Below are positions 18,230-37,082 of a stretch of 64,000 bases of DNA, piece after piece. Each line of letters starts with the position of its first letter. Position 1 is the first letter of the stretch. A program made the position numbers and the translations under genes. Origin of the DNA: Eledone cirrhosa (Eukaryota); the NCBI GenBank assembly GCA_964016885.1, contig CAXHJY010000624.1:1-64000 (forward strand), read 5' to 3'. A model generated the notes under the pieces. The model was not told the DNA's origin and did no database searches. It saw nothing but the letters and a program-made list of their open reading frames with translations.

Positions 18230-20095
18230 CAACTTTAGTAATGAAATAATTCATAATTTTAGTGAATCCCTAAAAATTAATTTTGATGCCATCCAGGCCA
18301 AAACTAGCTCTGGGTTCTAAGAAGCGAAGCCCTTCCCTTCTAAAAAAGAACCATATGTTATGCTACTACTTTAGAATTGAAAAAGTAATTTTAGTAAATC
18401 CCTAAAAAAAATATAAATTAACTATTTTCATTTGATGCCATCCAGGCCAAAACTATCTCTGGGTTCTAGGAAACAAAACCCTTCTATTCTAAAGAAGAAC
18501 CTTATGTTAAGTTACTATTTTAGTCATGAAATAATTATTAATTAACTATTTTCATTTGATGCCATCCAGGCCAAAACTATCTCTGGGTTCTAGGAAACAA
18601 AACCCTTCTATTCTAAAGAAGAACCTTATGTTAAGTTACTATTTTAGTCATGAAATAATTATTAATTAACTATTTTTATTTGATGCCATCCAGACCAAAA
18701 CTATCTCTGGGTTCTAGGAAACAAAACCCTTCTATTCTAAAGAAGAACCTTATGTTAAGTTACTATTTTAGTCATGAAATAATTATTAATTAACTATTTT
18801 CATTTGATGCCATCCAGGCCAAAACTAACTGTGGGTTCTTGGAAACGAAAGCTCTGGTTTAAAAAAAAGAACCATAAGTTAAGTTACTACTTTAGTAATG
18901 AAATAATTGATCATTTTAGTGAATCCCTAAAATTTATTAATTAATCATTTTGATTTGAGGCCAAAACTAGCTCTGGGTTCTAGGAAACAAAACCCCTCGT
19001 TTAAAAAAAAAAAAAAAAAAGAACCCTTTGTTAAGTTACTACTTTAGTAATGAAATAATTAATAATTTTAGTGAATCCCTAAAATTTATTAATTAACCAT
19101 TTAGATGCTATCCGGATCAAAACTAGCTCTGGGTTCTAAGAAGCGAAACCCCTCCCTTCTAAAGCACAACATATGTTATGCTACTACTTTAGTAATGAAA
19201 TAATAATTTTAGTAAATCCCTAAAAAAATATAAATTAACTATTTGGATTTGATGCCATCCAGATCAAAACTAGCTGAAGGTTCTCGGAAACAAAACTCCC
19301 CGTTTAAAAAAAAAAAAGAACCCTATGTTAAGTTACTACTTTAGTCATGAAATAATTACTAATTTTAGTGAATCTCTAAAATGTATTAATTAACCATTTA
19401 GATACCATCCAGGCCAAATCTAGCTCTGGGTTCTAGGAAACATAAACCCTTCCATTCTAAAGAAGAACCCTATGTTAAGTTTAGTAATGAAATAATTACT
19501 AATTTTAGTAAATTCCTAAAATCTATTAATTAATCATTTTGATTTGATGCCATCCAGGCCAAAACTAGCTCTGGGTTCTAGGAAACAAAATCCTACCATT
19601 CTAAAGAAGAACCATATGTTAAGTTACTACTTTAGTAATGAACTAGTTTTAGTAAATCAATAAAAATTCTTAACCATTTTGATATCTCCCAATATAATTT
19701 TATAGAAGATCAATATGTTAAATTACTACTTTAGTAATGAAATATTGGTAAATCTAAAAATCTTGGTAAATCACTTACAATTCTTAACTAATCAATTCTA
19801 TATCATGCAGGCCAAAACTAGTTCTGGTTCTATAAAACAAAACAAACTATTTAAAAGGGTTCCTTTTTCAATTAAAATCTAACAATTTTATAAACGAACC
19901 ATATCTTAGTAATGAAATAATTTATATTTAAGTACATCGCTCAATTTTTAGCCCATTTTATACATAACAGGACAAACCAACTATTTAAAAGGGTTCGTAT
20001 TTCAATTAAAATCGTCTACCATAAATTCATATAAGAACCATATGTTACATTGCTATCTTAGTAATAAAATAATTTATAATCTTAGTAAACCTCAG
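18230..20095. repeat. AT-rich satellite, ~124-145 bp unit, about a dozen copies with degenerate ends
   Basis: TGATGCCATCC recurs at 18433, 18557, 18681 and 18805 (124 bp period); AAAACTAGCTCTGGGTTCTA core throughout. Confidence 0.9.
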
Positions 20096-23019: not shown

Positions 23020-24660
23020 CTCTCAATATATCTCTGTCACAATCTCTCTCATTCAATAACTCTCTCGCTCGCTTTCTCTGTCCCAGTCTCTCTCTTTATC
23101 TGTCCCACTCTCTTTCTCACTGTCCCAGCCTCTCTCACTCTCTGCCACAGTCTCTCTCTCTCACTCACTCAATATCTCTCTCATTCAATAACTCTCTCTA
23201 TCGCTTTGTCGCTCTCTTTCTCTGTCCCACTCTCTTTCTCTCTGTCCCAGCCTCTCTCACTCTCTGCCACAGTCTCTCTCTCTCACTCACTCAATATCTC
23301 TCTCATTCAATAACTCTCTCTATCGCTTTGTCGCTCTCTTTCTCTGTCCCACTCTCTTTCTCTCTGTCCCAGCCTCTCTCACTCTCTGCCACAGTCTCTC
23401 TCTCTCACTCACTCAATATCTCTCTCATTCAATAACTCTCTCTATCGCTTTGTCGCTCTCTTTCTCTGTCCCACTCTCTTTCTCTCTGTCCCAGCCTCTC
23501 TCACTCTCTGCCACAGTCTCTCTCTCTCACTCACTCAATATCTCTCTCATTCAATAACTCTCTCTATCGCTTTGTCGCTCTCTTTCTCTGTCCCACTCTC
23601 TTTCTCTCTGTCCCAGCCTCTCTCACTCTCTGCAACAGTCTCTCTCTCTCACTCACTCAATATCTCTCTCATTCAATAACTCTCTCTATCGCTTTGTCGT
23701 TCTCTTTATCTGTCCCACTCTCTTTCTCTCTGTCCCAGCCTCTCTCACTCTCTGCCACAGTCTCTCTCTCTCACTCACTCAATATCTCTCTCATTCAATA
23801 ACTCTCTCTATCGCTTTGTCGCTCTCTTTCTCTGTCCCACTCTCTTTCTCTCTGTCCCAGCCTCTCTCACTCTCTGCCACAGTCTCTCTCTCTCACTCAC
23901 TCAATATCTCTCTCATTCAATAACTCTCTCTATCGCTTTGTCGCTCTCTTTCTCTGTCCCACTCCCTTTCTCTCTGTCCCAGCCTCTCTCACTCTCTGCC
24001 ACAGTCTCTCTCTCTCACTCACTCAATATCTCTCTCATTCAATAACTCTCTCTATCGCTTTGTCGCTCTCTTTCTCTGTCCCACTCTCTTTCTCTCTGTC
24101 CCAGCCTCTCTCACTCTCTGCCACAGTCTCTCTCTCTCTCACTCACTCAATATCTCTCTCATTCAATAACTCTCTCTATCGCTTTGTCGCTCTCTTTCTC
24201 TGTCCCACTCTCTTTCTCTCTGTCCCAGCCTCTCTCACTCTCTGTCACAGTCTCTCTCTCTCACTCACTCAATATCTCTCTCATTCAATAACTCTCTCTA
24301 TCGCTTTGTCGCTCTCTTTCTCTGTCCCACTCTCTTTCTCTCTGTCCCAGCCTCTCTCACTCTCTGCCACAGTCTCTCTCTCTCACTCACTCAATATCTC
24401 TCTCATTCAATAACTCTCTCTATCGCTTTGTCGCTCTCTTTCTCTGTCCCACTCTCTTTCTCTCTGTCCCAGCCTCTCTCACTCTCTGTCACAGTCTCTC
24501 TCTCTCACTCACTCAATATCTCTCTCATTCAATAACTCTCTCTATCGCTTTGTCGCTCTCTTTCTCTGTCCCACTCTCTTTCTCTCTGTCCCAGCCTCTC
24601 TCACTCTCTGTCCCAGCCTCTCTCACTCTCTGTCCCAGCCTCTCTCACTCTCTGTCACAG
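23020..24660. repeat. Homogeneous 122 bp CT-rich minisatellite, ~13 copies
   Basis: AATATCTCTCTCATTCAATAAC at 23171, 23293, 23415 and onward. Confidence 0.95.
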
Positions 24661-30822: not shown

Positions 30823-31263
30823 ATAATAAACGTAATGAAGGAGTAACCATTCGTCCTTGTATTACTATATTATATTATATTATATTATATTATTAAAGTA
30901 CCAGTAATGCACTGGGTAATTGCTGGCCTTGTGCCTAAAGTAGAAACAATTATTATATTACACTCTAGGGCGGTGAATTGGCAGTATCGGTAGAGGGTTG
31001 GACGCCATGCTTTCTAGCATAGTTACGTCCCGTTACGGTCTGAGTTCAAATCCCGCCGAGGTTCACTTAGCCTTTCATCCTTACACTGGTCGATAAAATA
31101 AAGTACCAGTAATGTACTGAGATAATTGCTGGCCTTGTGCCAAAAGTAGAAACACTTATCATATTACACACTGTCTAACTCTACACCGCGATACTGATGT
31201 GAACCTGAACATCGAGTGCTCGCCCGGGTGAACCTACAGTAACTCCACGTTACACTCCCTGGA
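30823..31263 (+). mobile_element. Family B mini-element interrupted by a 1.3-mer SINE (30895-31157)
   Basis: 30826-30862 matches the palindrome arm of 5083-5203; 31165-31263 is the reverse complement of 4966-5065; SINE tail plus a full unit lie between them. Confidence 0.75.
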
Positions 31264-31307
31264 TGGATTGATATATATATATATATATATATGAAATGTA
31301 TGGCCTT

Positions 31308-31388
31308 ACACACGCTGATGAACCGAGACTAGACCATTTCTTTCAACAAATTTTTTGGTGAAACATATCTTTGGATTTGTACGTGTGT
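31308..31388 (+). ncRNA. Type I hammerhead ribozyme with complete core
   Basis: Stem I ACACACG/CGTGTGT (7/7), CTGATGA 31315-31321, stem II ACCGAGA/TTTTGGT with long loop, GAAA 31360-31363, stem III ACATATC-tttg-GATTTGT (6/7), GUA cleavage after 31381. Confidence 0.8.
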
Positions 31389-31800
31389 TATATAGTTATA
31401 AAGGTATTTATTTACGCTTTAATTTATATTTTTAATTATCGTGTCTATAGTCTGCCTTTCATAGGTTATAGATTCCATACACTGGTGGTTTTTTTCCCTG
31501 TATTATTGGTAACGCACTATATATCTCTCTCTGGTGTGTTACCTTCTCAACATATTATATTTTAAAGGGCTCAGGATCTCTTCCCCTTTGAGCACATTAT
31601 TTACAGGGAATAACGACGGCCTATGCCTCCGTTAATTTATCGTGATATATATATATATATATATTTATTGGTTCTTATATATTTGATATATATTTATCCT
31701 TATCGAGCCCTCTTTGGATTTTAGTCTTCAAATTTATTATTATTATTACTATATATATTAACCCTTGTGGTTAATAAAGAAAACATTATTACTATATATA

Positions 31801-32074
31801 TAGGAACGAGTGGGACCCCGACGGCTGAGCTCAAGCCGTTTCGATGGCTAATTCTGGACTAAATGAAAATTTTTATCCTGGTATATTAATAGCCGAGCTT
31901 CTCATATATTCATATACCACGATAAACATTTCATTTAGTCCAGAATTAGCCGTCGAAACGGCTTGAGCTCAGCCGTCGGGGTCCCACTCGTTCCTATTAC
32001 CCACTCTACTACCCCAAGTATTGAGTACTTTGGTGCGTTATGGTCCACCTGGTTCCTTACCACATTTCCTTCGT

Positions 32075-35049: not shown

Positions 35050-35735
35050 TGGCAGAGTTGTTAGAACGTCAGATAGAATGGCAGAGTGGTTAGAACGTCA
35101 GATAGAATGGCAGAATGGTTAGAACGTCAGATAGAATGGTAGAGTTGTTAGAACGTCAGATAGAATGGTAGAGTTGTTAGAACGTCAGATAGAATGGTAG
35201 AGTTGTTAGAACGTCAGATAGAATGGCAGAGTTGTTAGAACGTCAGATAGAATGGCAGAGTTGTTAGAACGTCAGATAGAATGGCAGAGTTGTTAGAACG
35301 GCAGAGTGGCTAGAACGTCAGATAGAATGGCAGAGTGGTTAGAACGTCAGATAGAATGGCAGAGTTGTTAGAACGTCAGATAGAATGGCCGAGTGGTTAG
35401 AACGTCAGATAGAATGGCAGAGTGGTTAGAACGTCAGATAGAATGGCAGAGTGGTTAGAACGTCAGATAGAATGGCAGAGTGGTTAGAACGTCAGATAGA
35501 ATGGCAGAGTGGTTAGAACGTCAGATAGAATGGCAGAGTGGTTAGAACGTCAGATAGAATGGCAAAGTGGTTAGAACGTCAGATAGAATGGCAAAGTGGT
35601 TAGAACGTCAGATAGAATGGCAGAGTGGTTAGAACGTCAGATAGAATGGCAGAGTGGTTAGAACGTCAGATAGAATAGCAGAGTGGTTAGAACGTCAGAT
35701 AGAATGGTAGAGTTGTTAGAACGTCAGATAGAATG
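35050..35735 (+). repeat. 29 bp minisatellite derived from the SINE head (~24 units, TGGCAGAGTGGTTAGAACGTCAGATAGAA)
   Basis: Preceded by the SINE start GGCGGCGAAT; unit aligns to the SINE A-box region at 4007-4037. Confidence 0.9.
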
Positions 35736-35770
35736 CTCTGAAGCTCTCCCCTCTGAGACGCGTATTTCTA

Positions 35771-36452
35771 CCAGAAATTACCCCGACATACATATTTCAC
35801 CTAGAAATTATTCCGACATAAGTCTTTTCTCCACAAAGTACCCCGATACACTTCTTTAAGTCTGAAATTACCCCGACATATGCCTTTCAATCAGAAAGTA
35901 CCCGACATATGCCTTTCAATCAGAAAGTACCCGACATATGCCTTTCAATCAGAAAGTACCCGACATACACCTCTCAATGAGAAAGTACCCGACATATGCC
36001 TTTCAATCAGAAAGTACCCGACATATGCCTTTCAATCAGAAAGTACCCGACATACACCTCTCAATGAGAAATTACCCCGACATATGCCTTTCAATCAGAA
36101 AGTACCCGACATACATCTCTCAATAAGAAAGTACCCGACATATGCCTTTCAATCAGAAAGTACCCGACATACACCTCTCAATAAGAAAGTACCCGACATA
36201 TGCCTTTCAATCAGAAAGTACCCGACATATGCCTTTCAATCAGAAAGTACCCGATATATGCCTTTAATCAGAAAGTACCCGACATACACCTCTCAATGAG
36301 AAAGTATCCGACATACACCTTTCAAGAAGAAAGAATCTCGACATGCGTGTTTCTATCATAAAGTCCCTCGACATACGTATTTCTGCCACACAAATTTCAT
36401 CCAGAAAGTGACCCGATATACGTCATTCATCCAGAAAGTGACCCGATATACG
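35771..36452. repeat. 29 bp minisatellite CAGAAAGTACCCGACATATGCCTTTCAAT with variant units
   Basis: Period 29 (35892, 35921, 35950); TATGCCTTTC and TACACCTCTC variants alternate. Confidence 0.9.
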
Positions 36453-37082
36453 TCTGTCTGTATGCTTGTTTGTTTGTCCCTTCTGTCTAAAGCATTTCCA
36501 GTCTGTCTTTCTGTCTGTTCTCTCTAAAACACTGTCAATCTGTCTGTCACTTCTGTCTAAAACACTATCTGCCTGTCTGTCTCTATGTCTAAATCACTGT
36601 CTGTCTGTCTGTCTGTCTGTCTGCGGGCCTATCTGTCAGTTTGTCAGTCTGTCAAAATCACTGTCTGCCTGTCTGTCTATCTGTGCGTGCCTCTGTGTCA
36701 GTTTATCTGCCTGTGTGTCACTCTGCCTGACTCTTCTGTCTAAAACACTAAATCTGTGACCTTTAACCTCTTAGTTTTCAATGACACGAGACGACAAAGA
36801 TGTTTGGATGATGACGATGGTGATGACTACCGGTGATTGTTATCGTCTCTCTCTCTCTCTCTCTCTTTTACCTTATCTACAAGTAATGTGTTGTTTTCTT
36901 TCATGTTGTACACGTTGACATCCTTAATTCCAGCTTTAACGGTTTCGCGCCCTGCCTATTCCCGGCCGCACCACAACAACCTCGGGACATACAAATCTAT
37001 TGAAGATATATTCTTATCTTCATCATCATCATCATCACTATAGTTATCTTTATAAATGTGTATGTGGGTCTATGACTATATA

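What the first reader, a model, noticed from the sequence alone, without database searches (positions are those of the whole stretch)
31301..31405. Apparently intact monomeric type I hammerhead ribozyme
Seen: all core nucleotides are present (CUGAUGA, GAAA, GUA), with a perfect 7 bp stem I, a 6/7 bp stem III with a 4-nt loop, and a possible distal stem I extension (CCTT/AAGG) beyond a bulge. Inference: unlike the minimal PLE hammerheads it could fold and cleave as a monomer after 31381. It begins just after a (TA)n tract and is single-copy in the window.
Basis: partly seen in the sequence, partly recalled or inferred. Interest (0 to 1): 0.75.

Follow-up and report, generated by a model that had tools for sequence, protein, structure and literature searches.

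The report
Hammerhead retrozyme with self-blocking hairpin
This is a truncated copy of a protein-free jumping repeat, present in hundreds of near-identical copies, that carries a likely self-cutting RNA motif plus a long conserved hairpin predicted to hold it switched off, and its insertion ends suggest that Penelope-type retrotransposon enzymes copy it; cutting is untested.

Summary
The hammerhead motif is real (core 31315-31381). It is not single-copy: one 26-mer has 236 exact genomic matches, a family pattern 1290. It lies in a 5'-truncated 357-bp piece (31292-31648) of a 541-bp non-coding tandem unit inserted in (TA)n. 86 of 95 arms end at two fixed points 88 bp apart; 25 of 26 inverted pairs use one of each, the Penelope 'tail' signature. 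So it is a non-LTR retrozyme-type element. The scan already noted this two-armed layout in other families of this genome. Across subfamilies down to about 60% identity, stems I and III covary; stem II is 2-4 bp, its first pair mismatched in 37 of 57. New here: the long 'loop II' pairs with the 25 nt upstream of stem I (median 18 bp, covarying). This hairpin would exclude stem II, so the RNA likely toggles between off and on folds. It is weakest in the window's subfamily. Monomeric cleavage is plausible but unshown: the active fold is about 3 kcal/mol above the ensemble, and 51 of 59 genomic passes cross the cut site intact.

The parts
31292..31648 (+). 5'-truncated solo copy (357 bp) of a 541-bp non-coding tandem unit; one hammerhead only
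   Evidence: 99% identity to unit positions 1-353 of the tandem array L007/L031; one common and one private substitution against the family majority
31271..31291 (+). (TA)n target tract, 5' side
   Evidence: sequence
31649..31664 (+). (TA)n target tract, 3' side
   Evidence: sequence; 85 of 86 family ends are followed by TA-rich DNA
31293..31306 (+). Remaining part of the 5' arm of hairpin P0 (the distal part is lost by truncation); 31304-07 is also the 5' strand of the distal stem I extension
   Evidence: duplex -7.5 kcal/mol in the window vs -12.5 in an untruncated unit
31308..31314 (+). Stem I, 5' strand
   Evidence: covariation
31315..31321 (+). Catalytic core CUGAUGA
   Evidence: intact in 21 of 27 old similarity-selected copies
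31322..31359 (+). Stem II (3-5 bp, weak) and 28-nt loop II; 31327-31348 is the 3' arm of P0 (31335-40 pairs with 31293-98)
31360..31363 (+). Catalytic core GAAA
   Evidence: intact in 25 of 27
31363..31380 (+). Stem III, 6 of 7 bp, 4-nt non-palindromic loop (7-8 bp in older subfamilies)
31379..31381 (+). GUA triplet; predicted cleavage after 31381
   Evidence: hammerhead consensus; UH kept in 27 of 27
31382..31388 (+). Stem I, 3' strand
31401..31405 (+). 3' strand of the distal stem I extension
31560..31560 (+). First recurrent 3' end of the family (unit position 265); inferred reverse-transcription start site 1
31561..31648 (+). 88-bp 'tail' ending at the second recurrent 3' end (unit position 353); inferred start site 2
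   Evidence: interpretation from PMC11167929

Best explanation
The window holds a 5'-truncated copy of a protein-free 541-bp tandem retroelement inserted in (TA)n, likely copied by a Penelope-type enzyme, whose conserved type I hammerhead is predicted to be held mostly off by a long covarying hairpin. Shown: high copy number, head-to-tail units, no ORF, two fixed 3' ends used one on each arm of inverted insertions, covariation of stems I and III, and covarying complementarity between loop II and the upstream flank (P0). Inferred: (1) a Penelope-like RT/endonuclease, perhaps of the Hydra clade, nicks both strands of (TA)n and primes at two internal RNA sites 88 nt apart; (2) the template is uncut or re-ligated RNA, probably a unit-length circle copied more than once round; (3) P0 forms first during transcription, encloses the stem I 5' strand, CUGAUGA and the start of stem II in a loop of about 21 nt, and leaves a 4-5 nt linker that is too short for stem II to close; (4) strand exchange to stem I, the distal extension and stem II gives the cutting fold, slowly or with protein help, so multimers are occasionally cut to monomers while most RNA survives as template. 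The window copy has one hammerhead and half of P0, so it might cut once but could not release a circle.
For: Copy number. Tandem unit with no long ORF in six frames. Among all 55 insertions on contig C1 with an exact 26-mer of the 3' part: 86 of 95 arms end at unit 265 or 353, 85 of 86 are followed by TA-rich DNA, 25 of 26 inverted pairs use one end each; 20 of 86 arms exceed one unit. The tail equals the span between two RT start sites in a purified PLE (PMC11167929). Units of one insertion share marker alleles in 162 of 198 cells (0.10 expected if drawn independently) and share 28 rare variants, so insertions derive from one monomer sequence. Stem covariation: stem I pair 3 takes all four Watson-Crick pairs. 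P0: own-partner duplex mean -16.95 vs -8.31 kcal/mol for other windows, shuffle p<=0.05 in 44 of 58; proximal helix in the oldest clade 24 vs 8.3 double-change cells, 0 of 1000; linker <=8 nt in 46 of 50; the same 5' strand also has a partner-specific match to the 3' extension. 51 of 59 passes cross the cut site intact. A young PLE with Hydra motifs (RWR, DKT, CxCX5C; 692-aa open frame in L274) shares target, layout, a tail of about 90 bp and the first-end motif.
Against: No cleavage or expression data. The cutting fold is about 3 kcal/mol above the ensemble in the window and a median 10-14 in older copies, inflated by decay. P0 is not predicted to form in the window copy or in an intact unit of its closest subfamily (expected pairs 0.0-0.9; shuffle p 0.165 and 0.12), so the brake is weak where activity is most recent. 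Alignment folding recovered only 5 proximal P0 pairs in one clade and none in the other; the distal helix shows no double change within a clade and the middle helix is marginal (27 of 1000). Shuffle controls ignore kinship: the 24 cells rest on few events. The circular monomer is no more paired than shuffles (57% each, z -1.98), unlike 'highly self-paired' retrozyme circles. 36 of 198 marker cells are mixed within an insertion. Only 3 of 55 insertions hold two or more hammerheads head to tail. No parent PLE with this unit as its terminal repeat was found, so the mobiliser is unnamed. Linear multimers plus template jumps could give the same DNA.
Confidence: 0.62

Rival explanations
1. Same element, but the loop-proximal 6-7 bp of P0 is an activating pseudoknot between stems I and II, as in many bacterial hammerheads with a 1-2 bp stem II, and the ribozyme cuts fast as a monomer.
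For: About 40% of hammerheads use such a pseudoknot; stem II of 1-2 bp and a U-U at 10.1-11.1 are known and active (PMC3088659). The proximal helix has the strongest covariation and starts right at the ends of stems I and II.
Against: It does not explain the middle and distal segments that extend P0 to a median 18 bp, the 4-5 nt linker, or the competing distal stem I partner.
Confidence: 0.15
2. P0 presents the stem I strand, CUGAUGA and the start of stem II as a clamped loop that docks on the GAAA-stem III-GUA half of another unit, so cutting happens only between units of a multimer and monomeric circles are safe.
For: The enclosed loop is 17-22 nt in 46 of 50, about the size of that strand; the linker is too short for cis closure; helix III is long and non-palindromic, so the usual helix III dimer route is not available.
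Against: Stem I could form unproductively in cis; the distal extension signal points to a cis on-state; the window's subfamily has weakened P0.
Confidence: 0.1
3. These are terminal-repeat fragments of an autonomous Penelope-like element whose ORF-bearing copies were not sampled.
For: All insertion hallmarks are those of PLEs; most PLE copies are 5'-truncated. Only part of the family was read.
Against: In the 55-locus sample, 33 of 86 arms reach upstream of the hammerhead and continue in the unit, up to 4.4 units. PLE fragments near copies are separated from them, by 190 bp in the closest case read, L168. The 27 old copies show no adjoining ORF.
Confidence: 0.05
4. The hammerhead in the present subfamily no longer cuts to any useful extent; copies come from linear read-through RNA and the motif is inherited baggage.
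For: 51 of 59 passes cross the site; the stop rate near it (7 stops, p 0.011 uncorrected) is no higher than in other windows with 2.3-2.8x rates; hammerhead mutants did not impair PLE insertion in vitro; 8 of 9 Xenopus retrozyme dimers did not cut.
Against: Compensatory changes recur along the lineage. The tip subfamily regained a pair at 10.1-11.1 and part of stem III after a deletion.
Confidence: 0.08

Closest known systems
Metazoan non-LTR retrozymes (coral, mussel, axolotl; Cervera and de la Pena 2020, PMC7229834, parts 2-3 of 6 read; Li et al. 2026, 10.64898/2026.07.22.740005, parts 1-3 of 5 read)
   Same: Non-coding head-to-tail units with one type I hammerhead each, low GC, many solo copies, co-occurrence with PLEs; 541 bp lies in the 51-972 bp range of Li et al.
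   Different: Helix III of 7-8 bp, helix II of 2-4 bp with a 26-30 nt loop, and the long P0 hairpin are not described in the parts read; the circle is not unusually self-paired; circles and expression are not shown; insertions carry a Penelope tail and inverted arms.
Penelope-like elements, especially the Hydra clade (Craig et al. 2021, PMC8557442, passages and section 11 read; Frangieh et al. 2024, PMC11167929, parts 1-2 of 4 read)
   Same: 5' truncation, partial tandems, inverted 5' arm, optional tail between two fixed ends, (TA)n target, hammerhead read through intact.
   Different: No ORF; the tail is 88 bp against the 30-40 bp cited; the hammerhead is not of the minimal type.
Fungal and protist PLE hammerheads with a large helix III (Cervera and de la Pena 2014, PMC4209133, parts 1-2 of 4 read)
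   Same: Type I, large helix III, no canonical loop-loop nucleotides; such motifs cut as monomers in Serpula.
   Different: Here in an animal non-coding repeat, with a very weak helix II and the P0 pairing.
Pseudoknotted hammerheads with 1-2 bp stem II (Perreault et al. 2011, PMC3088659, passages and section 7 read)
   Same: Base pairing between the stem I flank and loop II; short stem II, mismatch at 10.1-11.1.
   Different: The examples read there are 4-6 bp and activating; P0 has a median 18 bp over 22 nt and appears too long to coexist with stem II.

Membership tests
Type I hammerhead ribozyme | Core CUGANGA, GAAA, UH in type I order | tested here: met
Type I hammerhead ribozyme | Helices I and III supported by covariation | tested here: met
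Type I hammerhead ribozyme | Helix II with G10.1-C11.1 | tested here: inconclusive
   Two C-G pairs are nearly invariant but partly pattern-selected; 10.1-11.1 is unpaired in 37 of 57 and A-U in the window; such weak stems are known
Type I hammerhead ribozyme | Match to an Rfam hammerhead model | tested here: not met
   the long loop II may defeat the models, so this lowers only the claim of a curated family
Type I hammerhead ribozyme | Mg-dependent self-cleavage | not testable with these tools
   needs in vitro transcription
Non-LTR retrozyme | Non-coding tandem units, each with a type I hammerhead | tested here: met
   3 of 55 insertions have two or more; the window copy itself is a solo monomer
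Non-LTR retrozyme | No RT ORF and no LTR-type terminal repeats | tested here: met
   primer-binding site and polypurine tract not searched
Non-LTR retrozyme | Expressed as linear and circular unit RNA | not testable with these tools
   no usable RNA run; see Tried and rejected
Non-LTR retrozyme | Highly self-paired circular fold | tested here: inconclusive
   z -1.98, 1 of 60 shuffles as stable; paired fraction equal to shuffles
Autonomous Penelope-like element | RT plus GIY-YIG ORF between terminal repeats | tested here: not met
Autonomous Penelope-like element | Insertion signature: truncation, inverted arm, tail, microsatellite target | tested here: met
Minimal PLE hammerhead | Helix III absent or 1-2 bp with palindromic loop, helix II of 7-8 bp | tested here: not met
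   against the definition

The most novel reading that the evidence does not exclude
A retrozyme lineage that controls its hammerhead with a built-in clamp: an 18-bp hairpin locks the CUGAUGA half in a loop so that the ribozyme cannot close in cis and instead assembles between neighbouring units. Multimers are cut while monomer circles are protected, a dimer route that does not use helix III; the youngest subfamily is relaxing the clamp and returning to cis folding.
Probability: 0.15. Interest if true: 0.82.

Novelty: new variant of a known kind. Interest (0 to 1): 0.56.

Why it matters
How retrozyme RNAs avoid destroying themselves while being cut to unit length, and which enzyme writes them into genomes, is proposed in the papers read but not shown. 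This lineage gives a ladder of natural variants, from about 60% to 100% identity, in which a competing hairpin, stem II and stem III change together. It yields direct tests of an off/on switch or of assembly between units. The two fixed ends locate the likely RT start sites, and a young Hydra-like PLE in the same genome is a candidate enzyme. The general class is known, and the scan had already noted the two-armed layout in other families, which limits the surprise.

Tried and rejected
Rfam at gathering and E-value thresholds: no hammerhead. My first window pattern allowed a gap of at most 35 nt and so missed this motif, whose gap is 38. Sequencing runs: no RNA holder listed; three contig runs of unknown kind hold the family but cannot show ends or expression. 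Test for 5' ends piling up at the cut site: 1 stop at unit 88 and 7 in 86-100 (p 0.011 uncorrected), similar to other windows and open to TA microhomology; rejected as a signal. The pattern search meant for that test instead found sister subfamilies. Position-specific variants shared between arrays were judged by a rough estimate to be within chance and were not used. Search for an autonomous parent: two PLE proteins against loci L001-L208 and against 27 old copies, and reading downstream of 12 endonuclease and 19 RT hits, found no PLE with this unit as its terminal repeat. Pfam gave no family for the Hydra-like ORF and sub-threshold RT and GIY-YIG hits for a second PLE. Alignment folding did not recover the hammerhead or the full P0 because indels shift the registers; anchored counts were used instead. 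Rows dropped: 9 of 95 arms not ending at a fixed end (listed); 7 of 58 copies with truncated or deleted flanks, plus the window copy where stated. Literature searches for this architecture or a cephalopod retrozyme found no description in the listings; supplements of the cited papers were not read and may show such motifs. Earlier-findings look-ups by sequence and by words for the hairpin returned nothing.

Full report
Observation. The motif is at the stated place. Stem I 31308-14/31382-88 has 7 Watson-Crick pairs, CUGAUGA is at 31315-21, GAAA at 31360-63, stem III has 6 of 7 pairs with a 4-nt loop, and GUA ends at 31381. Stem II is weak: 5 pairs including A-U at 10.1-11.1 and a G-U, closing a 28-nt loop. 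Stem I forms in the model (probability 0.85-0.89), stem II (0.02) and stem III (0.13-0.15) mostly do not; the full hammerhead fold is 1.0 kcal/mol above the minimum and about 3 above the ensemble at 37 C. The region folds like shuffles and Rfam finds no hammerhead.

What it belongs to. The 351 bases from 31295 have 99%-identical copies on many contigs. A core 26-mer has 236 exact matches, a 3' 26-mer 573 and a relaxed family pattern 1290, all with control 0. The repeat is a 541-bp head-to-tail unit (4.7 units in L031) with no long ORF in six frames. The window copy is unit positions -2 to 353 (31292-31648) between two (TA)n tracts, with a single hammerhead. The 3-Gb genome looks octopus-like from a recalled SINE resemblance; this was not tested.

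How it moves. I read all 55 insertions on contig C1 that hold the exact 3' 26-mer (24 already in hand, 31 fetched). 86 of 95 arms end at unit 265 or 353, 85 of these 86 run into TA-rich DNA, and 25 of 26 inverted pairs have one arm of each kind. The same two ends appear in old subfamilies. Truncation, inverted 5' arms and an optional tail are PLE hallmarks (PMC8557442, passages), and in a purified PLE the tail is the span between two internal RT start sites (PMC11167929). So a Penelope-type enzyme likely primes at two sites 88 nt apart, one on each DNA strand. 20 of 86 arms exceed one unit. Units and arms within one insertion agree at marker sites in 162 of 198 cells (0.10 expected if independent) and share 28 rare variants. 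This fits copying round a monomer circle but not only that. 51 of 59 passes cross the cut site intact, with no specific pile-up of 5' ends there, and only 3 of 55 insertions hold two or more hammerheads in tandem. No parent PLE was found. A young PLE with the Hydra motifs listed by Craig et al. has an open 692-aa frame, the same target and layout, a tail of about 90 bp and a similar first-end motif; this is a hint, not an identification.

Is the ribozyme under selection. Pattern searches exposed sister subfamilies down to about 60% identity, which form a ladder with the window's subfamily at the tip in a tree built from DNA outside the ribozyme (57 of 57 rows). In 30 representatives, stem I is 92.8% paired with 12 double-change cells against 2.4 after shuffling and stem III 90.5% with 13 against 4.7 (0 of 2000 each); stem II shows no signal. 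Sliding stem I by two still pairs 84%, because it is a dinucleotide repeat, but keeps only 2 double changes. Among 57 copies, stem I pair 3 takes all four Watson-Crick pairs, and pair 10.1-11.1 is unpaired in 37. These 30 were chosen by a core pattern; in 27 further copies chosen by overall similarity, CUGAUGA is intact in 21, GAAA in 25 and UH in 27, and core columns (0.97-1.00) beat flanks (0.90-0.92). The shuffles ignore kinship, so they overstate significance; the tree shows several separate events.

The new element, P0. Loop II is complementary to the 25 nt just upstream of stem I in all four main clades, with different sequences in each. Own-partner duplexes average -16.95 kcal/mol against -8.31 for other windows of the same element, and beat shuffles at p<=0.05 in 44 of 58. 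The helix has a median 18 bp over 22 nt, encloses about 21 nt (stem I 5' strand, CUGAUGA, start of stem II) and leaves a median 4.5-nt linker to the 3' strand of stem II (50 copies). By A-form geometry (recalled: about 2.8 A per pair, at most 6-7 A per single-stranded base) full P0 and stem II cannot coexist in cis. Covariation is strong in the proximal helix of the oldest clade (24 vs 8.3 cells, 0 of 1000), marginal in the middle helix of the younger clades (27 of 1000) and absent within a clade for the distal helix; alignment folding found only part of it. In the window's subfamily P0 is weakened (-12.5 to -15.4; -7.5 in the truncated window copy), is not predicted to form in its closest members, and the cost of the cis hammerhead is low (2.8 against medians of 10-14 in older, partly decayed copies).

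Mechanism. Best reading: two exclusive folds, P0 (off, forms first) and hammerhead with distal stem I (on). Most RNA stays uncut and serves as PLE template; occasional cutting gives monomers that can circularise. The PLE hammerhead studied in vitro cut only with its protein present, and insertion used uncut RNA. Rivals are an activating short pseudoknot (PMC3088659), assembly between units, terminal repeats of an unsampled autonomous PLE, and a dead relic. Cleavage, circles and the enzyme are all untested.

Comparison and verdict. It works like, and on DNA evidence files with, metazoan non-LTR retrozymes, which Li et al. tie to PLEs. It fails the tests for an autonomous PLE and for a minimal PLE hammerhead. 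A long helix III is described for fungal and protist PLE hammerheads. I found no description of an 18-bp competing hairpin in the parts read or in seven searches; supplements were not read. Earlier notes of this scan report the two-armed layout in 310-, 466/467- and 478-bp families of this genome; I saw them after my own counts. New variant of a known kind; interest 0.56.

Noticed in passing
window 4843 (+), 21041 (-), 21145 (+): Minimal type I hammerhead-like motif of a young PLE family (58 matches scored, 585 candidates); an inverted pair with a tail of about 90 bp in (TA)n. Full copies carry an ORF with Hydra-clade motifs (L274 3709-5784).
   Followed up: partly
window 7122-7182 (+): Hammerhead-like motif that follows GIY-YIG ORF ends of another PLE family in L043, L083, L088 and L144; that family also ends at (TA)n with a tail of about 60 bp, read by eye.
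   Followed up: partly
window 31800-31997: Inverted repeat with 74-bp arms at 96%; gives only sub-threshold miRNA-like Rfam hits. Similar sequence recurs in other loci, so probably another mobile repeat.
   Followed up: no
window 30960-31160, 2929-3326 and others: Abundant repeat of about 200 bp that looks like a tRNA-derived SINE (resemblance recalled, not tested).
   Followed up: no
L177, about 200 bp before the hammerhead: A 39-bp tandem duplication repeats the stem I strand, CUGAUGA and the start of loop II four times ahead of a complete hammerhead.
   Followed up: no
loci L001-L208: Hydra-like PLE RT fragments of several families (36-63% identity to one query) occur in about 22 loci, so this clade seems very abundant in this genome.
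   Followed up: partly
unit positions 216-250 (window about 31511-31545): A 10-bp hairpin lies just before the first fixed end, and the tail folds into a further long hairpin; candidates for RT start signals.
   Followed up: no
window 35050-36454, 18405-19665, 23086-24628: Young tandem arrays with 29-bp, 124-152-bp and 122-bp periods.
   Followed up: no
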